A DNA stretch of 64,000 nucleotides. Source: Phycisphaerae bacterium. Its GTDB lineage: Bacteria > Planctomycetota > Phycisphaerae > UBA1845. The translations under genes and the position numbers were made by a program. The DNA lies in the NCBI GenBank assembly GCA_020056715.1, contig JAGVHG010000040.1:75920-139919 (forward strand), in the 5' to 3' direction. The notes below the pieces were generated by a model. The model saw only the letters and a list, made by a program, of their open reading frames with translations, did not search any database and had not been told where the DNA came from. Shown here one piece after another: positions 9,818 to 58,800 of this stretch (its first letter is position 1; every line of letters begins with the position of its first letter).

Positions 9818-11962
9818 TTGATGGACCCACACATAGTCTCGCCTGACGACAGCCAAAGGGCGCCCCCGGCCCGGTTCCGGTCACGCGAGTTCTGGCGCCT
9901 CGTCGCCCTCACCAGACCCTACCGGTGGTCCTTGATCGCGGGCCTCGTCGCAACGATCGCCTTCGCGGGCCTGCACACCGTGGGAATCAGCGGCGCCTTC
10001 CCTGTTTTTCAGGTCTTATTGGAAAAAGAAGACCTGCACGGCTGGCTCAACCGCGCCATTGCGGCTCATCGTCTCGATGTCGACTTCGCGCCTGTTACCG
10101 ATGCCGACTTCGTTCGTTTCCTGAAGATACCCCATGACAGCCCCTTGCTTGTCGCCGGTGTTCGAGCGGGTGACGATCTCCGCGATGCCCGAGACCGCCC
10201 GGTCCAGGAGTTGTTGCGAGAACTTGCCGAGGTTGACGCGGAGACGCCGGTCAACGTACTTGTCGGTGGAGCGTCTGCGCTGCGCGCCGTGGAGCTTCGG
10301 CCTCGCCCGGCGGAGCTTCATTTTCGGCTACTTCGCTGGGTCGGATCGGCGCTTCCGCCCGACGCTCCGGACACCAAGCTCCGCACCCTGATCTACATCC
10401 TCATGGCCCTGGTTACCGTGGCCGTTGCCTCCAACATCTTCCGTTATGTGGGCGAGACGCTCATCGCCAGAGCGATTTTGCGTACCCTGTTCGACCTCCG
10501 CGATAGGCTCTACGTACGCACGTTGCACTTACCGATGTCCTATTTCTCCGGGGCTAAGACCGCGGACTTGGTGACGCGCTTCGTACAGGACATCCAGGAA
10601 ATCCAGCGCGGTTTAATCACCCTTTTCGGCAAGGCCGTGAGGGAACCGATGAGGGGGGTGTTTCTGATTGCCCTCGCTTTCACCCTCGATTGGCGAGTCA
10701 CCCTGACGATGGCCGGCGTTGTCCCACTGGCCGTCATTCTGTTCTGGGCCGTCGGTCGAAGCGTGAAGAACGCCAACCGAAAGCTCTTGCAAGCCTACGG
10801 GGCCATGATCGGGGCGCTGACCGCGAGTCTGCAAAGTCTTCGCGTGGTTAAGACCTACACCGCCGAGGAGCACGAACGCGCCCGGCTGGACGTCGTCGAT
10901 CGAAGAATGTTCGAGCAACAACTGCACCTCGCCAAGCTGGACGCCTTCCTAAGCCCCATGATGGAGACGATCGCCGTCCTGACGGGCAGTTTGCTGACCG
11001 TCTGGCTGGCGAGCCTGGTCCTTGACCATGCCCTTTCCACTGCGAAGTTCGCCGCCCTCGGTGTGACGCTTTCCATGCTCTTCGATCCGCTTCGCAAGTT
11101 GACCGACGTGTATGTCCGCATTCAGCGCTCCACCGCGGGCGCGGAACGTATTTTCCAGGTTCTTGACCATCCCGTGGAATCCGATCTCGCCCCCGGAGAC
11201 GTCGACGTGGCCCCGCTTGAGAAAGGGCTCGACTTCCTCAACGTCTCCTTCACTTATCCCGGCGCCACGGCGCCGGCGCTTAGCGACGTGACGCTCTCCA
11301 TCCGCCGCGGCGAGACGGTTGCCATCGTCGGCCCTAACGGCTGCGGCAAGACGACGCTGGTGAGCCTCCTTCCGCGACTGTTCGATCCGGAAAAAGGCGA
11401 AGTGCGTTACGACGGCGTCGATATCCGCCGGGCGACGCTAAACAGCCTCCGCCGACAGATCGGTTTTGTGGGTCAGGATGCGGTGATTTTCGAGGGCACG
11501 CCGGTGGAGAACATCGCTTATGGCGCCTCGCCGGTCGATCGAGGCCGCGCGGAAGACGCCGCCCGCCGGGCCTACGCCGATGAGTTCATCCGCAACATCC
11601 CAGGCGGATATGAGGCCGTCCTCGGCGAACGCGGCTCGACGCTCTCCGGCGGCCAGCGGCAACGGCTCGCCATCGCCCGTGCCATTTACCGCGACGCACC
11701 GATCCTCATCTTTGACGAGGCCACCAGTCAGATTGACACCGAGTCCGAGCAGAAGATCCAAACCGCCCTGCGCGAATTCGCCAAGGGCCGCACCACCATC
11801 ATCATCGCCCACCGCCTCAGCACCATCCAATTCGCCGATCGCATCATCGTCATGGACGCCGGGCGGATCATCGACTCCAGCTCGCATAAGGAACTGTTCG
11901 ACCGCTGCCCGCTCTATCGCACGCTCTGCGAAACGCAGTTTGTAAACGAGCGTGGAGACTAA
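9818..11962 (+). CDS. ABC exporter, fused permease/ATPase (MsbA-like) with enlarged first periplasmic loop
   Basis: Six-helix exporter TMD. Walker A GPNGCGKTT, signature LSGGQRQR, Walker B ILIFDEATS. A segment of about 125 aa lies between TM1 and TM2. Confidence 0.85.
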   Translation: MMDPHIVSPDDSQRAPPARFRSREFWRLVALTRPYRWSLIAGLVATIAFAGLHTVGISGAFPVFQVLLEKEDLHGWLNRAIAAHRLDVDFAPVTDADFVRFLKIPHDSPLLVAGVRAGDDLRDARDRPVQELLRELAEVDAETPVNVLVGGASALRAVELRPRPAELHFRLLRWVGSALPPDAPDTKLRTLIYILMALVTVAVASNIFRYVGETLIARAILRTLFDLRDRLYVRTLHLPMSYFSGAKTADLVTRFVQDIQEIQRGLITLFGKAVREPMRGVFLIALAFTLDWRVTLTMAGVVPLAVILFWAVGRSVKNANRKLLQAYGAMIGALTASLQSLRVVKTYTAEEHERARLDVVDRRMFEQQLHLAKLDAFLSPMMETIAVLTGSLLTVWLASLVLDHALSTAKFAALGVTLSMLFDPLRKLTDVYVRIQRSTAGAERIFQVLDHPVESDLAPGDVDVAPLEKGLDFLNVSFTYPGATAPALSDVTLSIRRGETVAIVGPNGCGKTTLVSLLPRLFDPEKGEVRYDGVDIRRATLNSLRRQIGFVGQDAVIFEGTPVENIAYGASPVDRGRAEDAARRAYADEFIRNIPGGYEAVLGERGSTLSGGQRQRLAIARAIYRDAPILIFDEATSQIDTESEQKIQTALREFAKGRTTIIIAHRLSTIQFADRIIVMDAGRIIDSSSHKELFDRCPLYRTLCETQFVNERGD

Positions 11963-11971: not shown

Positions 11972-12028
11972 TCAGAGCATCGGGCGCAAGCCCGATGTCA
12001 AAACGTGTCCGTAGGCTGGCGCCTACGG
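11972..12028. repeat. two-hairpin intergenic element, copy A (TCAGAGC + ATCGGGC-GCAA-GCCCGAT + CCGTAGGC-TGGC-GCCTACGG)
   Basis: Starts 10 nt after the ABC exporter stop, between convergent genes. A second copy with compensatory stem changes lies at 55714-55770. Confidence 0.7.
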
Positions 12029-12694
12029 CTCAGACGATATCCCCTTGAATCGCGTGCGATCCTTGCCGCATTCGGGACAAACGCCCGAGACATTTCCGGT
12101 CAGGCTGTAGCCGCAGCCGACGCATAAGCCACGACGCCGCCGACGCCAACGACGGCAGGGCCCACCCACAAAAGCGGCAGACGGTGCGAGCCCAGTCACG
12201 ACGGAAAGAAACCAAAGCGGTGCCGCAGTGTTATACACCATTGAGTCCCCCAGAAGACGTCGTGTCATGGTCCCTTTCCGTTCTTCATCGGTCGGAGAAC
12301 GCCCACAGTAGGAGATTAAATGGCCTCTGTTGTATCTCTCGAACCGAAACCCTCCCATCGCGAAATGTCTTAACGTAGGTATCGAGTGCCCAACGAATAA
12401 TGGGGTTACAAAGGCAATCATGAGATCGCCTCTTGCGATCCCGATGAATATCCGGCGATCGGCGAGGAGATTGTAACGACGTGCGATAGCCGGACCGGTC
12501 GTGCAACTCGGTGGCGCTGCCGCCAGCCGCCATATAAGGAAAGCATCATCGGCACCGCACGATTTTGGAAAGCGCCATTCCCTTAGTATCTTGGCGTACG
12601 ACAAAGGGATCAACATCAAAAGCAACAGCGACAGACATGCAAGACATTTGTGTAAGGCAATGCGAATCATGTTCACATTTCCGCTAACGACCAT
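12023..12694 (-). CDS. hypothetical membrane protein with C-terminal CxxC..CxxC zinc-ribbon
   Basis: TM segments (LACLSLLLLMLIPL, LWFLSVVTGLAPSAAFV) and the C-terminal motif RRRRRGLCVGCGYSLTGNVSGVCPECG. The region looks AT-richer than its flanks by eye. The start is uncertain. Confidence 0.4.
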   Translation of the reverse strand: MVVSGNVNMIRIALHKCLACLSLLLLMLIPLSYAKILREWRFPKSCGADDAFLIWRLAAAPPSCTTGPAIARRYNLLADRRIFIGIARGDLMIAFVTPLFVGHSIPTLRHFAMGGFRFERYNRGHLISYCGRSPTDEERKGTMTRRLLGDSMVYNTAAPLWFLSVVTGLAPSAAFVGGPCRRWRRRRRGLCVGCGYSLTGNVSGVCPECGKDRTRFKGISSEP

Positions 12695-13687: not shown

Positions 13688-14809
13688 TCATCCGTTTCGC
13701 TTTCGACTTTCGTTCGCCGCCTTCCGCAAGCCCTCCGTCATCTCCTCCAAGCACGTGAACAACCGCCGGTGGCGGCGTGTCTTGGATCGCACGAGGACGT
13801 ACTGGGCGATCAACGGAAAGGTGATCGAGGCACACGAATACACCACGACGTTGTTGACGTACGCATCCTTGATCTTTCCCCAGCTTCGGGCCTCGCTCGG
13901 CGTCGCTCCGGACAATCCACCCCAGTGCGGGGCGTCGGTGGTCAGTTGCAGGAAGTAGTCGTGCCCGCCCTTGGAGCGATCCATCAGTATCTGGTGGAGC
14001 GTGGGTTGAGTCTGCAAATAGAAATTCTTGGGTGATCCGCCGCCGATCTCGACCACGCCGTTGATGTCCGCGTCGCGGACAATGGCCGCTGTCTCGATGA
14101 CATCGAGCACCGGGTTGAGCATCACCGGCTTGTCGAAAAGATGCGGCACGATGAGGTTCATGCCGATCGACGAATCCCCCGGCGAGGAGGTGTAAATGGG
14201 CACGTCGAACTTGGCCGCCGCGGCCACCATCGACTTTTCCGGGTGCGGCGATTTCTCCCACAACATCTTTCCCATGTGATGGTGCAACCGGGCGGTCGAG
14301 AACGGCTTAGTGAGATCGAACCCCTGGATCAGTTCGAGCACTTTGTTGTCCGTGGCCATTAGCGTGTCTTCTTCGCCGATGAAAACATCAAAAATGCGGG
14401 CGACGCCTTCGTCGGCTAGGGCGTTGTCATCGACGTTGGCGCTGCCCTGCACCATGGGGAAGGCGTAGGCCAAGTGCAGGTCGTGGTACAGGTTGGCGCC
14501 CGTGGAGATGATGAAGTCCACGAACCCACGCTCGATCAGAGAACAGATGACCCCGCCGATTCCGATGGGCGTCATCGCCCCGGCGACGGTCAGGGCGACG
14601 GTGGCGTCGGCTTCGAGCATCCGCGCGTAGAGCTTGGCCCCTTCTGCCAGCTTGCGGCCGTTGAACCCGCTATGGGAGAAGCAATTGTCGATCAGGTCCG
14701 CGACGTTCTCGTTGCCGACAAGCCGCAACGGCTCGATCGCCGGAGCGTTGAGCAAGGCCGCGTGACCGGCGTGCTTGGCGTCTTTTTCACTATGTTGGCA
14801 AGGATGCAT
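13688..14809 (-). CDS. deoxyhypusine synthase-like protein (candidate homospermidine synthase)
   Basis: Full-length DHS-family similarity, e.g. GGGSPKNF and TTDAPHWGGLSGATPSEARSWGKI. Located between pdaD and speB. Confidence 0.8.
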   Translation of the reverse strand: MHPCQHSEKDAKHAGHAALLNAPAIEPLRLVGNENVADLIDNCFSHSGFNGRKLAEGAKLYARMLEADATVALTVAGAMTPIGIGGVICSLIERGFVDFIISTGANLYHDLHLAYAFPMVQGSANVDDNALADEGVARIFDVFIGEEDTLMATDNKVLELIQGFDLTKPFSTARLHHHMGKMLWEKSPHPEKSMVAAAAKFDVPIYTSSPGDSSIGMNLIVPHLFDKPVMLNPVLDVIETAAIVRDADINGVVEIGGGSPKNFYLQTQPTLHQILMDRSKGGHDYFLQLTTDAPHWGGLSGATPSEARSWGKIKDAYVNNVVVYSCASITFPLIAQYVLVRSKTRRHRRLFTCLEEMTEGLRKAANESRKRNG

Positions 14810-14892: not shown

Positions 14893-14894
14893 TT

Positions 14895-47621: not shown

Positions 47622-50600
47622 ATGAAACACAGACCGATCCGACGAACACGACGCCCCTTGGGGGTTGCAATTCTGTATTTGGCCGTGCTGGGGTCCGTCG
47701 GGAGCATGCCCTTCGCGCTTGCGCAGGTTCCCACCCAACCCGCCCAACCCACTCCACAGCCCGCGACTAAGGGACGTCGAACGAGCAACATAAAACCGCC
47801 TGTCCAGCCGCAACAAACGGACGAGCCAAAGACCGCGCCTGACGCCGAGGTGGAGACGCCCAAGGAGGCAGAGACCGCGCAACCGCAGACCCCGCCGCAA
47901 CCGATCCCACCACGCCCCGTGCGTCCGACGCCAGGCAAAGGGGTCGAACCGAGCGACGCAGCTGTCAAACCGACAATGCCGGAAGGCGCTCTTGATCCCG
48001 CTCGCGGCGCGGTCGCGCAACCACAGCCACAGCCAACAGCGGAAGCCCCGAAGAAACCCGATGAATCCGAAGTGGACCCGGCCAAGCGGGTGGAAGAGGC
48101 GCGTAAGGCAGCCGCGGATCGCGCCGCTGCGCGGCGTGCTCGCACCGGACAAGGTACGGACGCGACGGGTAGACCAATTGCGGGTCAGCCCGCCACGGGT
48201 GCGACGGGCTTACCTTCGGGAGCGGGTTCTATGCCGGTCATGCCGCCGTCGGGGGAGACGATGGGGGAGGTTCCGCCGGACGGCGAGCCGTCGACGACGC
48301 TCAACATCGCTCCGGCGGAAAGCGACGTGCCGCCGGAAGCGAGGATGTACGGATTCAGCATCAAGGACGGTACCTACGAACAGCTCATTGCGGGGTTCGC
48401 CCGGCAGACGGGGCTGGGCGTGATCGGCGATGCGCCCAAGGATGGGAAGGTGACGTTCGTTACTACAGAGACATTGACTTTCGATCAAACGCTCGCTCGG
48501 GTTCAGATGCTACTGTTCAAGTACAAGCCGCACGAGCCGTATTGGATCGTGCGCAACGAGACAAACCTGGAGGTCAGCAAGGTCAACGATATTTACCGCG
48601 TCCTTCCGCGGAACCGGATGTTTCGGAACTTGGACGACTACCGCGCTGCCAACCTATCAAGTGACGAGCTGGCATTGGTAGTGTATACGCCCAAGAGCGG
48701 TTCGATCGCCGCTTTGAAGCAAGTTCGGGACTGGCTGCCGGATTATGTGCGGGTGACGCCACTCGATGAGCAAAACAGCGTCACCATCTTCGCTCTGGTG
48801 AGCGACATCGAGAAATATCTCTGGTTGCTGGACTGGATCAGCGGAGCGCGCACGGACCCGCGGACGCTCACGAAGATCGAGGTCCGTCACCTCTTGGCAA
48901 GCGAGGCGCTCAACCGGATGCGACAATTGATGGACATCGAGGGGGCGCCGCAGGGTAGGCCGCAGACGGCGGTTCCGAAGCGCGCTGCGCGGGAGCCGAG
49001 CGCCTTGGACACCATGCCCGAGCCGCCCGTAACGGTGATCGCCGACGACGCCCAGGGGATCCTCCTGGTGCGGGCGATGCAGGACAAGATCGACGAGATC
49101 AAGCTGCTTCTGCCCTTCATCGACGTGGACCTGTCGACACAGTCACCGGCGCCTGTGATCGTAAAGCTGCAATACGTGGACGCGAATGATATGATCGCCA
49201 CGCTGCAGCAAATCCTGTCCGCGTCGTCGACGCCGCCGGGGACGCCTACGCCGCCCAGGGCGAAGAAGGGAAAAAAGGGCCTTCCCACGCCCGCGGGGAC
49301 GGCGCCTATGGGCGCATCGGGTACAGCTACAGCTCCGGAGAGCATCACGCTTCTGCCTCACCCCTCCGACAACGCGATCATAGTGCTCGCCGACGAAGAG
49401 GGGGTGGCGCGGGTCCGTGAGTTGGTCACGCTTTTCGACGTGTCCACGACGATGGACCCGATACGGCTTCCGTTGTCCCACGCGGACGCGAATGAAGTGC
49501 TCAATACCATTACGGCCGTGTTGGGAGCGGCTAACCCCAAAGGGAAGCCGGCCCTCGACCGGTTTACCGTGGTCGTCGATCCCGCCGGGGATGCGGTGTG
49601 GTTCAGAGGCGGCGACAAGGACCTCGCCAGGGTGAAGGGCTTGATCGAGACGATCGACGTCGCGGGGGAGCCGGTGTCGCTCCGGGTGGTGATGTTGAAG
49701 TACCAGCAGCCGACGTTCGTATCGAACATGCTGCGAGAGTTCGAGGGGACCAACTCGGCGTCCCCGACGCCGGCGCCGGCGGGGAGAAAACCAAAGAGCA
49801 AACGGGCCGTGTCGGTTCAGACTTCGAAGTTCACTCCGGACGATACGACGAACAGGTTGTTCATTATTTGTACGGAGGACGATTGGGCGCGGTACCAGCC
49901 GCTGATTGCGCAGCTCGACCGGCCGGCGGATGACGGGGAGGTGTTCGTTCGCCTGCCGCTTCAGCACGCCGAGCCGAACACGGCCATCGACCGTCTTGTA
50001 GCGATGCTCGGTGACGGGGAGAGCGTGCGGTTCATCCCCAGCGAGGGGAGCATCCTCGTGGTGGGAGCGAAGCCTCAGCAGATCGAACGCATCAAGGTGT
50101 TTATCGCCGAAGTGGACAAGCCGTCGCATGTGGAGCAGCGGACGTTCGAGATTCGGCACGCCAATCCGGCGGACATCAAGTCGGCGATCGAGAGTCTGAT
50201 CGCGGACATGCCGGTGAAGGCCCCACGACGGCCAAGGAAGGGCGACGCCGGTAAAAGTGGGGTAGCGACGGAGGCGACTGTGACGGACCAGTTGACCATC
50301 GTCCAACTCGGCCAACGGCTTGTGGTCCAGACCACGCCGGCGCGGATGGAGCAGGTTGCGGCGTTGATTGCCGAGTTCGACGTCGAGGAGGCGAAGACGG
50401 AACTGAAAGTGTACGCCGACTTCCCGCCGGGTACGAATATTGAGTCCATCTCCGATACGGTTTCGTCAGTGTTCACGGCGACTGGACGAGGCTCCAAGCG
50501 GGGAAACAAGGACGTCGCGGCGGTGGAGGGGCCGAAGTTCATCCCCCAGCCGGCGTCCGGCAAACTCGTGGTGATCGCCGATCCGTCGGTGTTCCCGGAA

Positions 50601-53600
50601 ATCGAGCGGCTCCTGAACGTGCTGCGGCGTGAGGTAGAGGCGAGGCCGACGATCGTGGCGTTCGTGGAGGTCAAGCACGCCGACCCCGCGGATTTGGTGG
50701 AAAGCATCAAGCCGCTGCTGGATATCAAGATTCGCGGGCTGGTGGAGTCGGGGGAACTGGACGAGGCCGGTGAAGAGGGCGTGGCCGCGCCGAAGATGCC
50801 CAAACGTCGGTCGGCACCCTCTCAAACCTCCAGCGACCGTTATCACCTTTCGCCCGATTCGCGGAACCACCGGATCGTGATTGCGGCGCCGCAGGTTGTC
50901 GTCGATCAAGCGAAGGCGCTGATTGCCCAGTTCGACACCCCGGGCGAAAAGCCTGTCTTCAAGACGGTGGAACTGGCCAACGCGGCGCCGGACGAAATGG
51001 TCCGCGCGGTCAAGGAGATGATGGGCAGGCCGGTGGCACGCAAGGCTGTGAGCACGGGCAAGGGGAAAGCGCCGGTCATGCCGGCCGTGGATTTAGGCGG
51101 CGGAAGCGAAGGGCTGTCGGTCGTCGAGGCGCCGGGTGGCGGCGCGGTGATCCTGCACGGGCAGGCGGCGGAGGTCGCTCAGGCCGAGGATTGGATCAAG
51201 CAACTCGACGCGATGTCCACGCGAGGGCGGACCATCAAGGTTTACGAGATCAAAAAGGCGGACATGGCCAAGCTGTTCGACCTGGTGGTGAACGTAGTCG
51301 GCAGTTCGTCGCCGGCGATGGGCGGTAAGGGCGTGCCGCAAATGCCGCATAGGTCCGCGGGCAAAGGTGCGGACACAAAAGAAAAAGACATTGAGGAGGA
51401 GTTCACCACAAGCAAGACGTTCTCCGGGGCGGACTTGTACATCCAGGCCGATTTGATCGGGAAGACGATGTTGGTTGCCGCGACGCCCTCAAAGGTTGCG
51501 GAGATAGACGACATTGTCGCTCGCTTGGACAAGGGCACGGAGGAGGCGATCGGCAGGGTCATCGGGGCGGACAAGCCGACGCCGAAGTTGATGTACGACC
51601 TGAAGGAGGCCGACGCCATCGACGCGAAATATGCCCTGCGGGACGCGTTCGAGACCATGTGGGAGCCGCGCGATGAGCTTCCCCAGGTGGATGGCTTCGG
51701 GAGCGTGTTGATCGTGCGCTATCCGCACGATGAGCGCTTCGACGAAATCCAGGAATTCATCCGCAAGTACGCGGACAAGCCCGATCCGGAGAAGACCAAG
51801 ATCGTGGCTAAGTCCTTCCCGGCCCCGGCTGGACTCAGGGCTGAGGAAGCGGCGGCTTGGATCAAAATAAATCACCCGGAGATCGTGGTGGACTTGGTGG
51901 ACAAAACGCCCGGTAGCGACAAGCCGTACGAAATCGAACAGATTCGGCCGCTTGCACCCAAGAAAGCCAATCCTTGCGTGTTGCCGGGCGCTTTTCTCCG
52001 GGCGACGGACGCCCTGCTGGGAAGCATCGTCGGTCAGTCTCCACCGCAAAACGGTGCGGGAGGCCAGCCCGAAGCCCAACCATTACCTGAGGAGGAAGCG
52101 ACCGAGGATGAGCCGGAGGAGGAAGTCGCACCCATCCCCACCGGCGATGACATGATTCGGCGAGCGATCACGCCGATCGTTCCTCGGAAGAGCAAGAAGA
52201 CCACTGAGCCCCAAGCCGACGACAAGAGTAAGACGAGTGACAAGTCGAGTGACAAGCCGGGCGAAAAAGCGGACGACAAGAAAGGGCTGACGGGAGAGCG
52301 GATCGAAATCGAATACAACAACGTGGCCGGTGTGTTCGTGGTCAAGGGGCAAGCCGGCGACGTCAAAGAGGTTGATGATTGGCTCGATGAACTCAAAGAA
52401 GGGATTGAGGACTTCCCAGTCAAACCCGACATTCGCATCTTCCGCGTGCGGTACATCGACGTGGACTTGGCGCAGGACATCTTGGAGGAGATGTTCAACG
52501 CCACGAAGCAGCAAACGGCAATGCTGCAACAACAACAGCAGGCCGCGATGCGGGCACAGCAGCAGTTGCAGCAGCGCCAGGGACAGCAGGGACAGCAACC
52601 GGGGGCCAAGGGTCAGCCAGGCGACCAAGCAGGCCCCGGCGCTCCCGGCGCTCCGGGCGGTCGAAACGCGCAGCCGCAAGCGATCCAAGCGCAGCTGGCG
52701 CCGCCGCAGCTTCCCCAGGCGGGCGTACGCATCTATCCCAACCGGCGCGATCGCACTTTGATCCTGCGCGCCGAGACCAGCCAGTATCCGCAGATCGAAG
52801 AACTCCTCGCCACGATCGATCAGCCCAAGCCCATCGACAGCTTCATGCGGACCTATCCGCTCAAGAACCTCAACGCCGCCGAAGTGGAAGAAATCCTGCG
52901 GGAAATGCTGGGGATCGGCAAGGAAGGCGCTCGTCCCAAGGCCGGGGCCGCTCGGACTCCAGGCGTACCGGGTGCACCGGGCGCGTCGGCCGCTCCGGCG
53001 GATCAACTTCCGCAGACGATTTTACAGGAGACGGTCTCCGGGGCGTCACAATTAGGCGTCGATCCTGCGGACATCAAGCTGTTCAGCAGCGAGGTGTCCA
53101 ATACGGTGATGGCCATGGCCCCGAAAAAGGCGTTGGATTTCATCGGGGAGTTAATCAACAAGCTGGAAAGCGAGGACATCCCGCAACGAACCACTAAGTA
53201 CTACGAGTTGAAGCACGCGGACGTAGAAGACGCGGCGGCGTATCTGGAGAGTCACTTCGAGGAGGCGTCGGGGCCGCGTAAAACGCGAAAAGGCGGCGGG
53301 GATGCCGCGGCCGCAGGCCCGGGCGGAAAATCCCTCAACACTCCGAGCTTCGTGCCCTATCCGCGATTGAACTTTCTGACGGTCCAAGCGACGGCGGCGC
53401 AGATCGAAGAGATCGACAAGATCGTCGAACGGATCGACGTGAGCGGGGGTACGGACAAATGGGAGGACGTGGCATTGGCCCACGCCGACGCCAAACTGGT
53501 CGCGGATACGCTGACGAAGATGTTCACCGACAAGAGCGGAGGGGGTACTGTTCCGTCGAAGGCGACGTCCAAGGGCGCGGCCATCCCCAAGTTTATCGGC

Positions 53601-55712
53601 GAGGAGGGCGGCGGGATCGTTTTGTTCAGCGCCCCACCGAGCCTGCGCGAGCAAATCCTGACGACCATTGCCAAGCTCGAAGAGCAATACAAAGAGACGC
53701 GCACCCCGCGAATTATCGAGCTAAAAAACGCCAAGCCCAGCGCCCTGGCGGAGGCGATTGAGAAGGCCTACGACGCGAAAAAAGCGGGAGGTAAGTCGGG
53801 CGGATCGACCCCCGCGCGATTTACGGTGACGGCGCATGATTCGTCCAAGCGGTTATTTGTGATCGCCGATGACGAAACTTTCAAGGAAGTCGAGGCTTTG
53901 GCGAGACTGCTGGATGACAAGCCGGGTACGATCGGGGTGGAGTTTCGGATTTATCCGCTAAAGTTCGCCAGCGCCAAGACCGTTCACGCGCAGATGACCA
54001 AGCTGCTGAAAGACTACCTGTCGCGGTTGGGTCAGGATGCCAATAAGATTGAGGCGTTCAGCGTCGAGCCGGAAGAATCGTCCAACTCGCTCATCGTGCT
54101 CGGCGGTCCCACGGTGTTCGGTTTCCTGGAGGAGAACCTTCGGAAGATCGACACGCCGGAGATGAAGACGAGCCTGCCGGCATCGCTGATTGTCCCCCTG
54201 AGCAACGCGAACGCCGCGGAAGTAGCGGGGAATATCCAAAAGCTGTACGCCGGGAAGGAGCAACCGCTGGGAGTGACCGCGCCGCAAGTGGAGGCGAACC
54301 CGTCGACGAACACGCTCATCGTGCGCGGCACCCAGTCCCAGATCAACGAGATCAAGAAGGACATCATCGACCCGCTGGAAGCGCAAGACAAGCTCGCCAG
54401 ACAGGTGCAGGTCAAGCCGATTAAGTTGAAGTTCGCCGACCCCGCCGGGGCCGCGGAGGTGATCAACAAGCTCTTCCGTTCCGAAGGCAAGAACGCCCGC
54501 GATCAGGTGCAGGCGTCAGCGGATTTCACCTCCAATTCGGTGGTCGTGGCGGCCTCGCCGGAGAACTTCAAACGCATCGAGGATTTGATCGCCCAGATCG
54601 ACAGCGCCGAGACAAGTCAACAGGACGTCCACGTGGTGGAGATCAAGCACGCCGACGCCTCGTCCGTGGCACAGACCTTGACCGAAATCTTCGTCCGCGC
54701 GGCGGCAAAACAGATGGGCAATCAAGCGCCGCCGATCACCATCTCGGCGGTGGCGGGATCGCGGGCGCTGCTCATTAAGTGCAAGACCGACGACTTCGCC
54801 CGCATCAAGGAGACGATCAAGGAGCTGGACAACGAGGACGTCGGCACCGGCGGCGAAGTCCGCGTGGTGACGCTCCTCTACGGAGACGCCAACGAAATCT
54901 CACAAGCGATGGAAAAGTATCTGACCAACTCCGGGGCGGCTGGCGGTCGCGGACCTCGGTTGATGGGCGACGCTCGGATTAGCTCTATGCCGCAGAGCAA
55001 TAGCGTGATGATCAGCGCCGCCAAGGAGGAGGTCGAGCGCTTGGTCGAGATCGCGCACGGGATGGATGTGGCCGGCGAAAAGGGCAGCGTCCCGCAGATC
55101 ATTCCGCTGAAGTACGCAAATGTTGGTATGATCCTTCCCAGCGTGCAGGAGGTGTTCACGGAGACGCGAGGCGGCGGTCGGCGGAATCAGCCCGCGCCGG
55201 TGATCGTGGCCGACGAGGGCAGCAATGCGTTGATCGTGCGGGCTTCCCAGACGGACCTGGCCGCGATCCAGGGGATCGTCACCCAGTTGGACACCGAGGA
55301 CAAGAAAGATAAGACTCCGTTCCGCATTATTAAGGTAGCGGCGGGAATCAACGTGACGGATCTGGCGGAGCAGGTGGAGACGACATTGAACGAAACCTCG
55401 CGGTCCCAGGCCGGTTCGGGGCGCGGGGCGCAGGTTCGGAGCGTCGCGGTGACGCCGAACGTGCGGACGAATAGCCTTGTCGTGTCGGGGTACGCGGCTA
55501 TGTTCGATCAGGCCGAGGCCCTGGTTCGCAAGCTCGAGGAGATGGGTCCGGTGGGCAATCGAGTGACGGCCGTCGTTCCGCTCAAGAGGACCAAGGTCGA
55601 TGAAATCCAACGGCTCATTGACCAGTTGACGCAACAGCCCGGCGGGACGGGTGATTCACGGCGCGGCGGCAGTCGTCCGCGGCCGACGAGTCGCCCGCGA
55701 TCGGGACCGTGA
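47622..55712 (+). CDS. giant secreted secretin-N-repeat protein (N0-like + ~25 N1-type modules, no secretin beta-barrel)
   Basis: Signal peptide (..GSMPFALA-QV) and a Pro/Gln-rich linker. N0/STN-like domain at aa 243-318. Repeated modules then carry the signature h.LK.A.A..h...L..hh ... D.(R)TN.LhV.A......I..LI..LD, e.g. VEIKHADASSVAQTLTEIF..SRALLIKCKTDDFARIKETIKELD. The protein ends without a barrel domain. Confidence 0.75.
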   Translation: MKHRPIRRTRRPLGVAILYLAVLGSVGSMPFALAQVPTQPAQPTPQPATKGRRTSNIKPPVQPQQTDEPKTAPDAEVETPKEAETAQPQTPPQPIPPRPVRPTPGKGVEPSDAAVKPTMPEGALDPARGAVAQPQPQPTAEAPKKPDESEVDPAKRVEEARKAAADRAAARRARTGQGTDATGRPIAGQPATGATGLPSGAGSMPVMPPSGETMGEVPPDGEPSTTLNIAPAESDVPPEARMYGFSIKDGTYEQLIAGFARQTGLGVIGDAPKDGKVTFVTTETLTFDQTLARVQMLLFKYKPHEPYWIVRNETNLEVSKVNDIYRVLPRNRMFRNLDDYRAANLSSDELALVVYTPKSGSIAALKQVRDWLPDYVRVTPLDEQNSVTIFALVSDIEKYLWLLDWISGARTDPRTLTKIEVRHLLASEALNRMRQLMDIEGAPQGRPQTAVPKRAAREPSALDTMPEPPVTVIADDAQGILLVRAMQDKIDEIKLLLPFIDVDLSTQSPAPVIVKLQYVDANDMIATLQQILSASSTPPGTPTPPRAKKGKKGLPTPAGTAPMGASGTATAPESITLLPHPSDNAIIVLADEEGVARVRELVTLFDVSTTMDPIRLPLSHADANEVLNTITAVLGAANPKGKPALDRFTVVVDPAGDAVWFRGGDKDLARVKGLIETIDVAGEPVSLRVVMLKYQQPTFVSNMLREFEGTNSASPTPAPAGRKPKSKRAVSVQTSKFTPDDTTNRLFIICTEDDWARYQPLIAQLDRPADDGEVFVRLPLQHAEPNTAIDRLVAMLGDGESVRFIPSEGSILVVGAKPQQIERIKVFIAEVDKPSHVEQRTFEIRHANPADIKSAIESLIADMPVKAPRRPRKGDAGKSGVATEATVTDQLTIVQLGQRLVVQTTPARMEQVAALIAEFDVEEAKTELKVYADFPPGTNIESISDTVSSVFTATGRGSKRGNKDVAAVEGPKFIPQPASGKLVVIADPSVFPEIERLLNVLRREVEARPTIVAFVEVKHADPADLVESIKPLLDIKIRGLVESGELDEAGEEGVAAPKMPKRRSAPSQTSSDRYHLSPDSRNHRIVIAAPQVVVDQAKALIAQFDTPGEKPVFKTVELANAAPDEMVRAVKEMMGRPVARKAVSTGKGKAPVMPAVDLGGGSEGLSVVEAPGGGAVILHGQAAEVAQAEDWIKQLDAMSTRGRTIKVYEIKKADMAKLFDLVVNVVGSSSPAMGGKGVPQMPHRSAGKGADTKEKDIEEEFTTSKTFSGADLYIQADLIGKTMLVAATPSKVAEIDDIVARLDKGTEEAIGRVIGADKPTPKLMYDLKEADAIDAKYALRDAFETMWEPRDELPQVDGFGSVLIVRYPHDERFDEIQEFIRKYADKPDPEKTKIVAKSFPAPAGLRAEEAAAWIKINHPEIVVDLVDKTPGSDKPYEIEQIRPLAPKKANPCVLPGAFLRATDALLGSIVGQSPPQNGAGGQPEAQPLPEEEATEDEPEEEVAPIPTGDDMIRRAITPIVPRKSKKTTEPQADDKSKTSDKSSDKPGEKADDKKGLTGERIEIEYNNVAGVFVVKGQAGDVKEVDDWLDELKEGIEDFPVKPDIRIFRVRYIDVDLAQDILEEMFNATKQQTAMLQQQQQAAMRAQQQLQQRQGQQGQQPGAKGQPGDQAGPGAPGAPGGRNAQPQAIQAQLAPPQLPQAGVRIYPNRRDRTLILRAETSQYPQIEELLATIDQPKPIDSFMRTYPLKNLNAAEVEEILREMLGIGKEGARPKAGAARTPGVPGAPGASAAPADQLPQTILQETVSGASQLGVDPADIKLFSSEVSNTVMAMAPKKALDFIGELINKLESEDIPQRTTKYYELKHADVEDAAAYLESHFEEASGPRKTRKGGGDAAAAGPGGKSLNTPSFVPYPRLNFLTVQATAAQIEEIDKIVERIDVSGGTDKWEDVALAHADAKLVADTLTKMFTDKSGGGTVPSKATSKGAAIPKFIGEEGGGIVLFSAPPSLREQILTTIAKLEEQYKETRTPRIIELKNAKPSALAEAIEKAYDAKKAGGKSGGSTPARFTVTAHDSSKRLFVIADDETFKEVEALARLLDDKPGTIGVEFRIYPLKFASAKTVHAQMTKLLKDYLSRLGQDANKIEAFSVEPEESSNSLIVLGGPTVFGFLEENLRKIDTPEMKTSLPASLIVPLSNANAAEVAGNIQKLYAGKEQPLGVTAPQVEANPSTNTLIVRGTQSQINEIKKDIIDPLEAQDKLARQVQVKPIKLKFADPAGAAEVINKLFRSEGKNARDQVQASADFTSNSVVVAASPENFKRIEDLIAQIDSAETSQQDVHVVEIKHADASSVAQTLTEIFVRAAAKQMGNQAPPITISAVAGSRALLIKCKTDDFARIKETIKELDNEDVGTGGEVRVVTLLYGDANEISQAMEKYLTNSGAAGGRGPRLMGDARISSMPQSNSVMISAAKEEVERLVEIAHGMDVAGEKGSVPQIIPLKYANVGMILPSVQEVFTETRGGGRRNQPAPVIVADEGSNALIVRASQTDLAAIQGIVTQLDTEDKKDKTPFRIIKVAAGINVTDLAEQVETTLNETSRSQAGSGRGAQVRSVAVTPNVRTNSLVVSGYAAMFDQAEALVRKLEEMGPVGNRVTAVVPLKRTKVDEIQRLIDQLTQQPGGTGDSRRGGSRPRPTSRPRSGP

Positions 55713-55713: not shown

Positions 55714-55770
55714 TCAGAGCGCCGGGCACAAGCCCGGTGACCGTGTTTGTCCGCAGGCTTGCGCCTGCGG
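55714..55770. repeat. two-hairpin intergenic element, copy B (TCAGAGC + CCGGGC-ACAA-GCCCGG + CCGCAGGC-TTGC-GCCTGCGG)
   Basis: Starts 2 nt after the giant gene stop. It aligns with 11972-12028 and carries paired (compensatory) stem substitutions. Confidence 0.7.
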
Positions 55771-55822
55771 CTCGGCGGGGCGGACTGTGTGGAAGGACCG
55801 GGCCATGGATGGGTTCCGGTGA

Positions 55823-58800
55823 GTGGAGGCAATGGTGATGAGGATGAACGGACAAACGAGGACGGGATGCGTCGGCCGGTGGCGATGGATATTCGCCGTG
55901 GGCGTCTTCGCGGCGAGTTTGTTGTTGGTGGACGGCTCGGCGAGAGGTCAGGCCGAGCGCAGTTCCGAACAAGCGCAAACGCAACAGCCGCCGAGCCCGC
56001 CGGCCCCACAACGCAAGGGTGCAGTGCAGCCGTCGCAACCTGCGCAACGCCCACAGCAACCACGCGGACAAAAACCGCCGGCACAGCCCGATCGGATCAG
56101 CGAGCTGGTGCGCGGACTCGACCCCGCGGTCTTGGCGCAGCTCGCCGGGGCGGAGGTGACGGCCGAGGTGGTCGGCGACCAAGTGATTTTGCAAGGCCCG
56201 GAGGAAGCGGTGAAGGCGATCGAACTGCTCATCCGAGCGCTGGAGGTCGAAAGCGAGTCGAAAGCGAAAGTCCTGCAGGTGGTCCAAGTCACGGAGCGTG
56301 ACGCCGTGGAGATCGCTCGGACCGTCCAACAGGCGGTGCGCGATGCGTTGGGATTCGCAGCGCAAAAACAGGAGGATAAGATCTCCGTCACCGCACTGTC
56401 ATCGAACATTCTATTGATAGCGGCGTCGCCGAAAGAAATCGACCAGGTGATCGACATCATCGAGCAGGTCGACGCGATTCCCGATCCGTTGGGCAAGGTG
56501 GAGTTGATGCGCTTCGACGTCGTGCATCGCAAGGCGGGCGACGTGGCCAAGGAATTGGAGAAGATCATCACCCAACTTCGCGTCGCCGCTGGGCAGAAAA
56601 AGGACCAGGGGAAGCTGCAAATCATTCCCAACAACTCCAACAACACCATTACCGTCACCGCCCGCGAAACCGAGCGCGAGAAGATCCAGGCCCTTATCGA
56701 GAATATCGACGTGGAGCCGAAAAAGGGCTGGGGCGAAATTCGCCTGACCATCTTCCCGTTGCTTCATTCCAAAGCGAGCGATCTCCAGAAAGTCATCCAG
56801 GATTTGATCAAATCGGAGGCCAAGGCGGACAAGGACGCCGTACAGGAGATGATCCAGCGCCTGCGCATAAGCAAGGCCGACGCGACCGGCAAGATGACCG
56901 ACCTTGCACCGATCGATCTTCAGCGCCAATTGCGGATCATCTCTGACACGGGCACGAACAGCTTGATCGTGGCGACGATCGAGGAGAACGTCGAGCCTAT
57001 GGGCGAGTTGATCCGCCTGCTCGACGGCGTGCCGCTCGCGGAGGAGTTCGCGGTCAAGCTGTTTCCCCTTCGCTTCGCCGACGCGGAGACGGTCAACAAA
57101 GTGCTCAAGGAGATGTTCGATTCCGGCAAGAAGCTGCCTGAGGACCCCAACGGCGGCGGAAAGGGCGGCGTCCCCACGGGTTCCGAGGGGCACGCCCTGG
57201 TATACAACGTAGGTCTGGCCACGGACTTGCGCACCAACACGTTGATCGTCTCCGGTCGCCCCGAGCAGTTGGGGCTGGTGGAGACGGTCGTCGGTGAACT
57301 GGACCGCCCCGCGACGGCCCTGAAGTTCCCCTTGCGGCTGATTCCCTTGGAGTACAACGACGCGACCGGGTTTGGGAAGATGGTGACGGAGTTGTTCGAC
57401 CAACGGATGAAGACGGTCGAGGCTACGAACGCGGGCAAGTCCGCCGCGGAACGCGAGCGCATCTTTCTCAGCGTGGACCTCCGCACCAACTCCTTGATCG
57501 TTTCGGCCTCGGAGGAGAACTTCAACGAGATTGTCGCCATCGCCCGGCAGTTGGATACGAAGCCGGCGAAGCTGTTCGACCAAATCCGAATCGTGCCGCT
57601 AGCCAGACTCACCGCCAAGGACATGAAGACCAAGATCGAGGACTTGTGGAAGCGCAAGGCCGATCTGCGCAAGGAGGGCAAGCTGCTCGAGGATCTGCCC
57701 ATCGTGGCCTTCGATGAACGCAGCAACTCGCTCGTGGTCGCCTCCAACCGCGAGGACTTCGACGAAATCCTGCGACTGGTGACTCTGCTCGAGGCCCAGC
57801 CGCTGATCGAAGATATCCGGCTGTTCAAGTTGGAGTTTGCCGACGCGGCCGTCCTTTCGGGGATGTTGGACGAGTTGTTCAAGGGTCTCGCTGGTCAATC
57901 GGAATCCTTCAAGGCGCCCACGATCATTCCCGACTCGCGAAGCAACGCGTTGGTCGTGGCGGGCGCCCGCGACGCGACGGAGCGCGTGGCCGAGGTGGTT
58001 CAACGGCTGGACGTGGAGGCCGGACCGCTCACCGCGGTTTTCAAGGTGTATCCCCTGAAGAACGGCTCGGCCAATCAGCTTGCCCAGCGGATGCAAAAGC
58101 TGTTTGACTCCCGTAAGGAGGGCGAAAAGACCGACCGGACGCCGGTGGTGATTCTGTCGGAGGAGTCGTCCAATAGCCTGGTGGTCAGCGCCTCGCGCGA
58201 CGATCATGACGTGATCGACGGCCTAATCGATCTGCTGGACAAACCGTCGAGTCTTGCCCAGCAATTCGAGATCTTCCCGCTGAAGATGTCCAAGGCCAAG
58301 ACGGTGGCGGAAAAGCTGGACAGCCTCTTCAAAGCACAGGGCGAGGGAACGACGGGTCGGGCGGATGCCATCGCCACGCAGGCCGACGAGCGGACCAACT
58401 CGATCATCGTGTGGGCGTCGCCCTCGCAAATGGCCAACATCGGCGAGGTCATCGCCAAGCTCGACACCTCCACGCCGGCCGTGGAGATGATGATTAAGGT
58501 TATCCAACTCAAGCAGGCGCTAGCGACGGATTTCGCCAAACTGCTCGAGGAGACGCTGATTGGCGACAAGTCCGGCGGCGATGAGGAGCGTGCGGTCATC
58601 GTGTCGTTTCTGGAAAAAAACCCGAACGGCAAGGAAATCCTACGCAAGTTGTTGCGCCAGGACATCCGCATCAAGCCCGACCCTCGGACCAACTCCGTGA
58701 TGGTCATGGCCCCGGCGGACAGTATGTCGATGCTGGAGGCGATGATACTTGACTTCGACCGCATCCGCCCGGTGACCTCCGAAATCCGCCTGTTTCCGCT

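What the first reader, a model, noticed from the sequence alone, without database searches (positions are those of the whole stretch)
11972..12028. Two-hairpin element present twice with compensatory stem substitutions (second copy 55714-55770)
Copy A reads TCAGAGC ATCGGGC-GCAA-GCCCGAT ..(12 nt).. CCGTAGGC-TGGC-GCCTACGG. Copy B reads TCAGAGC GCCGGGC-ACAA-GCCCGGT ..(12 nt).. CCGCAGGC-TTGC-GCCTGCGG. One stem pair in hairpin 1 changes from T-A to C-G, and one in hairpin 2 from T-A to C-G, with both sides changing. Another pair changes from A-T to G.T, which remains compatible as a wobble. Both copies start within 10 nt of the stop of a long plus-strand gene. Paired changes indicate selection on structure, as for a REP-like element, an mRNA 3' stabiliser, or a terminator lacking a U-tract. 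Copy B sits between the two secretin-family genes, so it must be compatible with whatever coupling they need.
Basis: seen in the sequence. Interest (0 to 1): 0.6.

Follow-up and report, generated by a model that had tools for sequence, protein, structure and literature searches.

The report
REP-like hairpin doublets of a transposase family
The two-hairpin element is real and its stems co-vary, but it is an ordinary kind of thing: a pair of short palindromic "REP" repeats of the type that surrounds a known class of single-strand DNA transposase genes in Planctomycetes and Acidobacteria.

Summary
Two about 60-nt elements (11972-12034 and 55714-55776) each carry two perfect 8-bp hairpins, and every stem difference between the copies keeps pairing. 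Each element is an inverted doublet of one 28-nt unit: foot TCnGAGC, 8-bp stem, 4-nt loop, 8-bp stem, tail GAC. The window holds only these four units.

A search anchored outside the variable stem positions found 17 more doublets on 15 metagenome contigs, plus one in a MAG. Across 21 doublets 96.7% of stem cells pair, and 8 of 16 pairs change on both sides.

In six independent loci, clusters of the same unit lie directly on both sides of a 165-175-aa gene. That gene is a Pfam Y1_Tnp HUH transposase whose predicted fold matches only IS200/IS605 TnpA and E. coli RAYT. Its motifs and the CnGA foot match the 'class 3 TnpA_Y1' REPtron-like systems of Quentin et al. 2018.

So these are REP/REPIN-type repeats, probably substrates or relics of that transposase. 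Stem covariation is best explained by hairpin recognition on single-stranded DNA. Any role as an RNA stabiliser or terminator is untested.

No transposase gene lies in the window. It is a new member of a known kind, of low to moderate interest.

The parts
11972..11999 (+). Copy A, left unit (X type). Foot TCAGAGC (CnGA = CAGA), 8-bp stem CATCGGGC/GCCCGATG, loop GCAA, tail TC.
   Evidence: Sequence. Unit covariance model R1 scores 40.5 bits, E 3e-08. DNA fold -10.2 kcal/mol, z -5.5.
12000..12006 (.). Copy A spacer between the two units. Together with the unit tails it reads GTCAAAACGTGTC, a spacer type also seen in doublets that flank the transposase gene.
   Evidence: For comparison, L021 has GACAAACAAACGTGTC and L003 has GTCAAACCGTGTC.
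12007..12034 (-). Copy A, right unit (Y type), read on the minus strand: TCTGAGC-CGTAGGC-GCCA-GCCTACG-GAC. The TAG stop of the minus-strand gene (12023-12025) lies in its stem.
   Evidence: R1 scores 43.2 bits, E 6e-09. ORF 12023-12694 (-) ends ...GISSEP*. The orthologous unit in L018 12463-12490 scores 44 bits.
55714..55741 (+). Copy B, left unit (X type): TCAGAGC-GCCGGGC-ACAA-GCCCGGT-GAC, with one G.T pair.
   Evidence: R1 scores 38.4 bits, E 1e-07.
55749..55776 (-). Copy B, right unit (Y type), read on the minus strand: GCCGAGC-CGCAGGC-GCAA-GCCTGCG-GAC.
   Evidence: R1 scores 41.5 bits, E 2e-08. The orthologous unit in L026 2873-2900 scores 31 bits.
9821..11962 (+). Upstream gene of copy A, an ABC transporter with fused permease and ATPase. 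Its stop codon lies 9 nt before the element.
   Evidence: Pfam ABC_membrane and ABC_tran. P0001 is 100% identical over 713 aa.
12023..12694 (-). Convergent gene with a C-terminal CxxC...CPEC zinc-ribbon motif. Its last three codons and its stop codon lie inside the Y unit of copy A.
   Evidence: In L018 the ortholog stops at the TGA within the unit's foot.
47622..55712 (+). Upstream gene of copy B, a 2696-aa protein with 18 Secretin_N repeats and no pore domain. Its stop codon lies 1 nt before the element.
   Evidence: Pfam.
55838..60379 (+). Downstream gene of copy B, a secretin with 10 Secretin_N repeats and the Secretin pore domain. The start is ATG 55838 by the NCBI gene call and by orthologs, or 55898 by the JGI call.
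   Evidence: The ortholog start ATGAGGATGAACGG appears.

Best explanation
Each element is a REPIN/BIME-like inverted doublet of a 28-nt REP-type unit. The unit reads 5'-TCnGAGC foot, 8-bp G+C-rich stem, 4-nt loop, 8-bp stem, GAC-3'. In a doublet the two GAC ends face each other across a short variable spacer.

The unit belongs to the repeats that surround 'class 3' HUH-Y1 (IS200/RAYT-like) transposase genes, whose hallmark is a hairpin with a 5' CnGA foot.

Proposed mechanism, inferred from IS200/IS605 and E. coli TnpA-REP:
- The transposase binds the hairpin on single-stranded DNA, for example the lagging-strand template.
- It uses the tetranucleotide at the foot as a guide to cut and rejoin.
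- This copies or moves units in trans.
- The protein reads the shape of the stem and the foot, not the stem's sequence. Stems can therefore drift through compensatory changes while the foot, the inner GGC/GCC pairs and the tail stay fixed.

The two window copies are non-autonomous, because no transposase gene lies in the 64 kb. They sit where REPs usually survive, just after stop codons.

Both copies are old. A unit persists at the same site in relatives whose flanking proteins are 80-83% identical.

When transcribed they must form two stable RNA hairpins at the 3' end of the upstream message. Any effect on decay, termination or translation termination would be secondary and is unproven.
For: What the sequence and searches show:
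- Unit anatomy and inverted arrangement. The X unit and the reverse complement of the Y unit agree at 20 of 28 positions.
- Only four units occur in the window, at 38-43 bits. The next best hit scores 14 bits.
- Dispersal: one doublet in a MAG in a non-orthologous context, and 17 doublets on 15 metagenome contigs.
- Covariation: 96.7% of stem cells pair, 8 of 16 pairs change on both sides, and 0 of 500 shuffles reach this. Slid controls pair at about 30%. The search pattern left the outer four pairs of each stem free.

Association with the transposase gene:
- Unit clusters lie directly on both sides of a 165-175-aa gene in L003, L006, L016, L021, L023 and L024.
- In L021 all 3 units found in 20 kb lie within 140 nt of that gene.

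Identity of the gene:
- Pfam Y1_Tnp at 38.2 bits, above the cutoff of 23.
- AlphaFold model with pLDDT 85.5. The top 30 PDB matches are all IS200/IS605 TnpA or RAYT 4er8.
- Motifs NHVH, W[TA] and YVxxxQ are conserved.
- JGI names homologs 'REP element-mobilizing transposase RayT'. NCBI homologs come from Phycisphaerales, Phycisphaerae, Planctomycetota and Acidobacteria MAGs.

Literature match (PMC6006769):
- Class 3 is described with NHVH, W[TA] and YV[VI][AENY]EQ.
- It occurs mainly in Planctomycetes, Acidobacteria and Proteobacteria.
- Its genes are flanked by secondary structures with a 5' CnGA foot, in high copy number.
- Its Table S1 units read CnGAGCCGCGACCGTAAGGGAGCGGA. They share the foot, the outer CGC/GCG pairs and the GA tail with the Y unit here.

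Link to the window's lineage:
- The window comes from a Planctomycetota MAG with Phycisphaerae-like relatives.
- The transposase contig L021 comes from the same samples as the window's 83% relative L018/L019. It has the same G+C content and an equally high tetranucleotide correlation with the window.
Against: - No transposase gene lies in the window (tblastn). The rest of the source genome could not be read, so an active partner in this organism is unproven.
- Density is low: 2 doublets in 64 kb here, and 1 intact unit in 22 kb of L018. Classical REP families are denser.
- NCBIfam's IS200 and REP_Tyr_transpos models match the protein only below their cutoffs. It is therefore not a canonical RAYT.
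- No class 3 enzyme has been tested biochemically, so cleavage at the foot is an analogy.
- The Y units at both sites show hairpin-preserving double changes at fixed orthologous positions. Transposase recognition alone does not require this of immobile copies.
Confidence: 0.85

Rival explanations
1. A host RNA element. The hairpins are kept because, as the 3' end of the upstream mRNA, they block 3'-5' exonucleases, end transcription without a U-tract, or slow termination by lying close to the stop codon. The resemblance to transposase-flanking repeats reflects only origin. This reading can coexist with the best explanation, as exaptation of some copies.
For: - Both copies begin 1-9 nt after a stop codon, and copy A lies between convergent genes.
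- The Y unit persists at both orthologous sites in relatives at 80-83% protein identity. It shows one hairpin-preserving double change each: T-A to C-G in L018 and A-T to G-C in L026.
- Where the REP unit is missing between the secretin genes, another stable hairpin takes its place: L028 with z -4.8, and L027.
- REPs elsewhere are reported to stabilise mRNA, terminate transcription and affect translation (background of PMC6006769).
Against: - The same units occur in tandem arrays and in both orientations relative to neighbouring genes, for example L004 against L005.
- They also occur inside an ORF in L001.
- There is no U-tract on the + strand.
- The X unit decayed at both orthologous sites, so the two-hairpin form is not conserved as such.
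- L027 folds no better than shuffled sequence (z -0.2).
- No transcript data are available.
Confidence: 0.3
2. Relics of an insertion sequence. The doublets are miniature derivatives of a true IS200/IS605-type element, its left and right subterminal hairpins joined after loss of the interior. They are not REPs served by a domesticated single-copy gene.
For: - The protein scores slightly better against IS200 than against the RAYT model in NCBIfam (31.4 against 26.5 bits).
- Its best Foldseek E-values are to ISDra2 and IS608.
- Quentin et al. state that class 3 resembles both IS and REPtrons.
Against: - Gene flanks hold several units in arrays and in both orientations, not one defined left end and one right end. 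L003 has 19 units in 1.3 kb, and L024 has 5 upstream and 4 downstream.
- No conserved target sequence lies next to the doublets (flanks).
- Transposase contigs carry one gene copy each.
- Doublets have variable spacers of 8-46 nt.
Confidence: 0.1
3. No selection at all. The apparent compensatory changes arise because a mismatch in a palindrome extruded as a hairpin is repaired using the other arm as template. A mutation is then either erased or copied across.
For: - All stems are perfect or near-perfect palindromes, and double changes appear even at fixed orthologous sites.
- Mispaired intermediates are few: 3.3% of stem cells are unpaired.
Against: - This does not explain why the unpaired foot TCnGAGC and the tail GAC are conserved across contigs and phyla.
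- It does not explain why the units surround one gene family.
- The X units at both orthologous sites did decay.
Confidence: 0.1

Closest known systems
REP-like secondary structures flanking class 3 TnpA_Y1 genes (Quentin et al. 2018, BMC Genomics 19:475, PMC6006769)
   Same: - The 5' CnGA foot directly followed by GC and a hairpin.
- Unit length of 26-29 nt.
- Outer stem pairs CGC/GCG and a 3' GA tail, as in the Y-type unit.
- Several units on both sides of a single HUH-Y1 gene with NHVH, W[TA] and Y----Q motifs.
- Occurrence in Planctomycetes and Acidobacteria.
   Different: - The published examples (Solibacter usitatus, Legionella pneumophila) have weak stems with internal mismatches and a GTAA/GTCA loop.
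- Stems here are perfect 8-bp G+C-rich helices with GCNA loops, or TTNA in a subfamily.
- The units here form regular inverted doublets.
- The paper gives no planctomycete unit sequence in the parts of Table S1 that I read.
Canonical REP/REPIN-RAYT systems (E. coli, Pseudomonas; class 2 TnpA-REP; Bertels and Rainey)
   Same: - Short extragenic palindromes with a conserved unpaired 5' tag.
- Inverted doublets with a short spacer.
- Location after stop codons and between convergent genes.
- Clusters around a Y1 transposase gene.
- Long persistence at fixed sites.
   Different: - The tag is CnGA, not GT[AG]G.
- The protein is from another class, and the NCBIfam RAYT model scores below its cutoff.
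- The two units of a doublet differ in stem sequence, so the doublet folds as two local hairpins rather than one long one.
- Density is lower in this lineage.
CGTC-tagged REPs (Di Nocera et al. 2013, PMC3733652)
   Same: - Read on the other strand, the unit begins (C/T/G)GTC, then an 8-bp stem, a 4-nt loop and an unpaired tail.
- The dimers have their tags facing each other, which that paper calls head-to-head and reports as the main arrangement for CGTC repeats.
   Different: - CGTC families have A/T at the first two stem positions and a CCA tail. Stems here start CA/CC and the tail is GCTCnGA.
- CGTC repeats were reported to have no associated transposase, whereas these have one.
IS200/IS605 subterminal hairpins (IS608, ISDra2)
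   Same: A hairpin of about 20-25 nt with a guide tetranucleotide 5' of its foot, read by an HUH-Y1 enzyme on single-stranded DNA. The protein fold matches.
   Different: There is no defined left and right end pair around the gene, no tnpB, no evident target site, and the units are dispersed without the gene.

Membership tests
Class 3 TnpA_Y1 REPtron-type repeats | A short hairpin with a conserved 5' tetranucleotide foot CnGA. | tested here: met
   All four window units and 36 distinct units elsewhere begin (T)CnGAGC. C2, G4, A5, G6 and C7 are invariant and position 3 is free. The same foot appears in published class 3 units.
Class 3 TnpA_Y1 REPtron-type repeats | Units flank a class 3 HUH-Y1 gene on both sides. 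| tested here: met
   Met in six related loci: L003, L006, L016, L021, L023 and L024. Not met inside the window itself, which has no such gene. The rest of the source genome was not available.
Class 3 TnpA_Y1 REPtron-type repeats | The associated protein has an HUH-Y1 fold with motifs NHVH, W[TA] and Y----Q. | tested here: met
   Pfam Y1_Tnp is above its cutoff. NHVH, WT/WA and YVxxxQ are conserved in 54 homologs, with H97, V98, H99, W137 and Y158 invariant. Fold matches are limited to IS200/IS605 TnpA and RAYT. Position 5 of the Y motif is G here, against E in the published consensus.
Class 3 TnpA_Y1 REPtron-type repeats | Many dispersed copies in the host genome. | tested here: inconclusive
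   There are 2 doublets in 64 kb, and relatives are low in units outside the gene flanks. Whole-genome counts were not possible.
Class 3 TnpA_Y1 REPtron-type repeats | The transposase binds and cuts the unit on single-stranded DNA. | not testable with these tools
   This needs biochemistry. According to PMC6006769 it has not been done for any class 3 enzyme.
REPIN / BIME (inverted REP doublet) | Two units in inverted orientation separated by a short spacer. | tested here: met
   In every doublet the unit model hits the left half on one strand and the right half on the other. Spacers are mostly 2-8 nt between unit ends, up to 43 nt in L001.
REPIN / BIME (inverted REP doublet) | The doublet folds into one long hairpin. 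| tested here: not met
   The X and Y stems differ. The minimum-energy fold is two local hairpins as RNA and as DNA. Cross-pairing would leave about 11 of 28 positions unpaired (my count from the sequence).
Canonical GTAG REP / class 2 RAYT | A 5' GT[AG]G tag at the foot of the hairpin. | tested here: not met
   The foot is CnGA. The GTAG in hairpin 2 of copy A lies inside the stem and reads GCAG in copy B and in many other copies.
Canonical GTAG REP / class 2 RAYT | The protein reaches the NCBIfam REP_Tyr_transpos (NF047646) cutoff. | tested here: not met
   It scores 26.5 bits against a cutoff of 80.
CGTC-tagged REP families 1-4 | A CGTC tag, A/T at the first two stem positions, a CCA tail and no associated transposase. 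| tested here: not met
   Only the GTC of the tag fits. The stem starts, the tail and the transposase association all differ.
Intrinsic (rho-independent) terminator | A G+C-rich hairpin followed by a U-tract on the transcribed strand. | tested here: not met
   No + strand site is called at either copy. The only call is hairpin 1 of copy A on the minus strand, with the weak tail CTCTGATTTC. The scan found no more sites than in shuffled sequence.
Any Rfam family | A match to a curated covariance model. | tested here: not met
   There are no hits at gathering score over the window. Nothing relevant appears at E up to 1 around either copy.

The most novel reading that the evidence does not exclude
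The Y-type hairpin has been taken over by the host. At both sites it has survived since the split from relatives with 80-83% identical flanking proteins, each time with a hairpin-preserving double substitution, while its X partner decayed. At site A it supplies the stop codon of the convergent gene in both genomes. Where the REP unit is absent between the two secretin genes, a different stable hairpin takes its place. This would make these class 3 REP units a source of exchangeable 3'-end hairpins (U-tract-less terminators or decay barriers) in Phycisphaerae-like planctomycetes. It would also make them a vertically inherited REPIN-RAYT-like partnership outside the Proteobacteria.
Probability: 0.2. 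Interest if true: 0.5.

Novelty: new member of a known kind. Interest (0 to 1): 0.3.

Why it matters
It settles what the element is, so nobody needs to treat it as a new regulatory RNA.

It also gives the poorly described class 3 HUH-Y1 systems a clean, strongly structured repeat family in Planctomycetota:
- a clear 28-nt unit;
- a covariance model that separates true units (31-47 bits) from background (about 14 bits);
- six gene loci with flanking arrays.

This is a practical starting point for testing whether class 3 enzymes really cut at a CnGA foot. It also allows annotation of these repeats in planctomycete MAGs, where they overlap gene ends and can mislead gene callers.

The orthologous-site comparisons hint at long vertical persistence, as argued for REPINs in Pseudomonas and enterobacteria.

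Tried and rejected
- Exact-protein look-ups of window genes found nothing. The source contig could therefore not be extended, and no transposase gene or copy number could be sought in the source genome.
- The viral contig scan gave 0 hits, so there is no phage link.
- Rfam gave nothing. The single weak CRISPR-DR29 hit (16 bits against a gathering score of 39) lies in the coding region upstream and is noise.
- The terminator reading is rejected on the + strand for lack of a U-tract.
- A third copy was suspected at 35065-35083, which has the same ATCGGGC/GCCCGAT stem. It has no foot, no partner and no model hit, so it is a chance hairpin.
- An orientation test against neighbouring genes was inconclusive. 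At 60% G+C, stop-to-stop ORFs are too numerous to assign genes on short contigs. Clear cases show both orientations.
- G.T against A.C mismatch counts were too few to say which strand is read.
- Assignment to Di Nocera's CGTC families was considered and dropped.
- The unit alignment A3 was chosen with a pairing filter of at least 6 of 7 pairs. Its 95.5% pairing is therefore not independent evidence. The doublet alignment A2 is the fair test.

Full report
**1. The observation**

Copy A:
- TCAGAGC, then an 8-bp hairpin at 11978-11997 with loop GCAA.
- A second 8-bp hairpin at 12009-12028 with loop TGGC, then CTCAGA.

Copy B has the same layout at 55714-55776.

An alignment with flanks shows that similarity starts at TCAGAGC and ends about 6 nt after hairpin 2. 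The spacer between the hairpins is largely unrelated between the copies.

All five stem substitutions keep pairing. There are two T-A to C-G double changes and one A-T to G.T change.

Degenerate patterns for either half, with up to 3 mismatches allowed, hit only these two places in 64 kb. The chance expectation is 0.02 and 0.00.

Both copies fold as two local hairpins, as RNA and as DNA.

The context claims also hold:
- The element starts 9 nt after the TAA of an ABC transporter gene, and 1 nt after the TGA of a 2696-aa protein with 18 Secretin_N repeats.
- The gene after copy B is a true secretin.
- One addition: copy A lies between convergent genes. The minus-strand gene 12023-12694 reads ...GISSEP and stops at a TAG inside hairpin 2.

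**2. Anatomy**

The two hairpins are one unit in two orientations. The left half is TCAGAGC-ACCRGGC-GCNA-GCCYGGT-GAC. The reverse complement of the right half is TCTGAGC-CGYAGGC-GCNA-GCCTRCG-GAC. The two agree at 20 of 28 positions.

The unit is therefore a 7-nt foot TCnGAGC, an 8-bp stem, a 4-nt loop, the second stem arm and a tail GAC. The element is an inverted doublet with the two tails facing each other.

A covariance model of the unit (R1, built from 36 distinct units) finds exactly four units in the window, at 38-43 bits. The next hit scores 14 bits. Each unit scores only about 9-13 bits on its wrong strand, so the foot gives the unit a direction.

**3. More copies and covariation**

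A scan of one genome per species found one doublet, in a MAG (L001). It lies between convergent genes unrelated to those of the window. The source genome itself is not in that collection.

A metagenome scan used a pattern anchored on the foot, the three or four innermost stem pairs and the GCTC after hairpin 2. The four outer pairs of each stem were left free. It returned 17 doublets on 15 contigs.

On 21 doublets:
- 96.7% of stem cells form standard pairs.
- 8 of 16 pairs change on both sides (27 cells).
- No shuffle out of 500 reaches any of the main measures.
- Sliding the partner by 1-3 columns drops pairing to about 30%.

The free pairs carry most of the signal. Pair 11-22 is A-U in 11 sequences and G-C in 10. 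Pair 41-54 is U-A in 12 and C-G in 7.

Many of these cells must be inherited within subfamilies rather than being independent events.

**4. What the units belong to**

Contig L003 (1269 bp) holds 19 units in two arrays on either side of a 171-aa ORF. The ORF's start codon overlaps the foot of the last upstream unit.

Homologous ORFs lie next to units in L016 and L006.

Evidence on the protein:
- It matches Pfam Y1_Tnp above the curated cutoff (38.2 against 23 bits).
- It matches NCBIfam's IS200 and RAYT models only below their cutoffs.
- A search found 325 homologs. JGI names them 'REP element-mobilizing transposase RayT'. NCBI names them as transposases of Phycisphaerales, Phycisphaerae, Planctomycetota and Acidobacteria MAGs.

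Three further gene loci were fetched through these proteins and searched with R1:
- L021: the only three units in 20 kb lie within 140 nt of the gene.
- L023: eight model hits (seven full-length units and one partial) lie on both sides.
- L024: five units lie upstream and four downstream.

An AlphaFold model built on 54 homologs has pLDDT 85.5 and pTM 0.80. Its top 30 PDB matches are exclusively IS200/IS605 transposases (ISDra2, IS608, Sulfolobus) and the E. coli REP-associated transposase 4er8, the last with the lowest rmsd of 3.5 Å.

**5. Match to the literature**

Quentin et al. 2018 (PMC6006769) split HUH-Y1 proteins into IS200-type (class 1), RAYT-type (class 2) and a small new class 3. 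They describe class 3 as follows:
- Motifs NHVH, W[TA] and YV[VI][AENY]EQ.
- Found mainly in Planctomycetes, Acidobacteria and Proteobacteria.
- High copy number, about 600 in Solibacter usitatus.

The protein family here has NHVH, WT/WA and YV-x-x-x-Q. The foot TCnGAGC contains CnGA with a free third base.

Their Table S1 lists class 3 units such as CCGAGCCGCGACCGTAAGGGAGCGGA and CAGAGCCGCGACCGTCAGGGAGCGATCG. These share the foot CnGAGC, the outer CGC/GCG pairs and the GA tail with the Y-type unit TCnGAGCCGCAGGCGCNAGCCTGCGGAC. The inner stem differs and is much stronger here.

The elements do not fit two other published groups:
- The GTAG REPs, because the tag is not GT[AG]G.
- The four CGTC families of Di Nocera et al. 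2013 (PMC3733652), which differ in stem starts and tail and were reported to lack a transposase.

**6. The window's lineage**

The window comes from a 141-kb contig of a Planctomycetota MAG whose relatives are labelled Phycisphaerae or Planctomycetes. No Y1 gene lies in the 64 kb.

The transposase contig L021 comes from the same two samples as L018/L019, which carry the 83% ortholog of the ABC transporter. L021 has the same G+C content (60.1% against 59.9%) and as high a tetranucleotide correlation with the window (0.968) as the true relatives do. This is compatible with the relative owning the gene, but it is not proof.

**7. History at the two sites**

Site A:
- In L018 (83% protein identity) the Y unit is intact at the same place (44 bits). 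Its stem differs from the window by one double change, T-A to C-G.
- That unit supplies the TGA stop of the zinc-ribbon gene, from the foot TCTGAGC.
- The X unit is degenerate (CTCGGGTGCAAGTCCGAT).
- About 290 nt carrying other palindromes lie between the ABC stop and the element.
- In L017 (90% identity) the neighbouring gene is different and no element is present. A unit lies upstream of the ABC gene instead, and the window lacks that one.

Site B:
- L026 (80% identity) keeps the Y unit (31 bits), with A-T changed to G-C and one C-G changed to T.G. Only the left arm of X remains.
- L027 (76%) has no unit.
- L028 (84%) has a different hairpin with a UUCG loop at that place.

The insertions are therefore old, decay slowly and unevenly, and show presence/absence differences among relatives. 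This fits long-lived, vertically inherited REP-type repeats, as described for REPINs (abstracts listed).

**8. How it most likely works**

Shown:
- A repeat family with a directional foot and a co-varying hairpin.
- Dispersal in intergenic 3' regions.
- Clusters around an HUH-Y1 gene family.

Inferred from IS608, ISDra2 and E. coli TnpA-REP (background of PMC6006769):
- The enzyme binds the hairpin on single-stranded DNA.
- It uses the tetranucleotide at the foot as a guide for cleavage and rejoining, and so multiplies units in trans.
- Recognition of shape plus foot explains why stems co-vary while the foot, inner pairs and tail stay fixed.

Also inferred: once transcribed, the two hairpins (about -33 kcal/mol as RNA for the two together, from the centroid structures) sit at the 3' end of the ABC and Secretin_N messages. 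There they could slow exonucleases or polymerase.

From my own knowledge, E. coli REPs within about 15 nt of a stop codon were reported to stall terminating ribosomes (Liang, Rudd and Deutscher 2015). The stems here begin 15 and 7 nt after the stops. This is a lead only. I could not find that paper in the library.

**9. Rivals**

- A dedicated RNA element is possible for individual copies, most plausibly the Y units. It cannot explain the family as a whole.
- A true insertion sequence with miniature derivatives is hard to reconcile with arrays of units in both orientations around the gene.
- Arm-to-arm repair of palindromes could produce compensatory-looking changes without selection. It does not explain conservation of the unpaired foot and tail.
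- Chance is excluded.

**10. Verdict**

The element is a new, well-structured member of a known but little-studied kind: class 3 TnpA_Y1-associated REP-like repeats. It is not a new class of regulatory RNA.

Interest is 0.3. It is useful for annotating planctomycete MAGs and as a test substrate for class 3 enzymes, but it would not surprise a specialist.

Noticed in passing
window 12023-12034; L018 12486-12490: The stop codon of the convergent zinc-ribbon gene comes from the repeat unit in both genomes. In the window it is the TAG in the stem. In L018 it is the TGA in the foot TCTGAGC. Read from its foot, the Y unit has a stop in two of three frames.
   Followed up: partly
window 55787-55820; L026 2904-2945; L027 2853-2898; L028 48-85: A leader motif is conserved in all four orthologs just upstream of the second secretin gene, downstream of the repeat. 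It reads GTGGAAGGACCGG..GGATGG.TTCCGG. It could be a regulatory or structural element of that gene's 5' region.
   Followed up: no
L026 2951-2978; L028 90-117; L027 about 2902-2930: A further weak CnGA-foot hairpin, TCAGAGCCGCCGGATTCATCCGGCGG (18.8 bits), sits in the secretin-2 leader of three relatives. It is absent from the window, so it is a presence/absence difference.
   Followed up: partly
window 47622-55712: This 2696-aa protein has 18 Secretin_N repeats but no Secretin pore domain. It lies directly upstream of a secretin with 10 Secretin_N repeats plus the pore domain. The pair is conserved in relatives (L026, L027).
   Followed up: partly
window 16750-16835 and 19050-19085: A different palindromic repeat, built from GGCTGTAG / GGCTATAG / AGGCTTCAGCCT motifs, lies on both sides of ORF 16902-18914 (-). 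The two sites form 32-nt inverted arms at 75% complementarity. That ORF itself carries 9 copies of a 30-nt internal repeat (repeat finder D3-D5).
   Followed up: no
window 14807-14902 and 4679-4710: An inverted repeat with 36-nt arms (83% complementary) is made of CGCCGAAA-type repeats, upstream of the gene 13688-14809 (-). A related arm lies at 4679-4710 (88% complementary).
   Followed up: no
window 61239-61330: A perfect 12-bp stem hairpin (TTCGCGGCTCAG / CTGAGCCGCGAA, 61266-61296) is embedded in a longer palindrome, GAATGCGGAATG ... CATTCCGCATTC.
   Followed up: no
window 20977-21813: Tandem repeats of 117/123 nt (6 copies at 63-82% identity) lie inside ORF 20597-22066 (-).
   Followed up: no
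L018 12156-12430: About 290 nt lie between the ABC transporter stop and the degenerate X unit. They carry two CCCAGGGT...ACCCTGGG palindromes of about 37 nt, probably another small repeat family. The insertion point is next to the foot of the X unit.
   Followed up: no
L001 2125-2152 and 3271-3298: Two units of a TTCA-loop subfamily (CCnGAGCCGCGGGCTTCAGCCCGCGCGG, 32-33 bits) lie inside a 748-aa ORF. They are translated as ...PEPRASARA... and ...GLKPAARD..., so they are intragenic REPs.
   Followed up: no
L012 374-999 compared with L016 1990-2594: The two contigs share the same flanks and the same downstream doublet. L016 has a unit plus the Y1 transposase gene between them. L012 instead has two small overlapping ORFs of 82 and 67 aa that look like a toxin-antitoxin-like pair (my reading of the sequences, not tested). 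The locus is variable.
   Followed up: partly
window 55741-55751 compared with 11999-12009: The spacer of copy B with its tails reads GACCGTGTTTGTC. Its reverse complement, GACAAACACGGTC, resembles the common spacer type GTCAAAACGTGTC of copy A. The spacer may therefore be inverted relative to the X/Y order. In L008 the X and Y stem types are themselves swapped.
   Followed up: no
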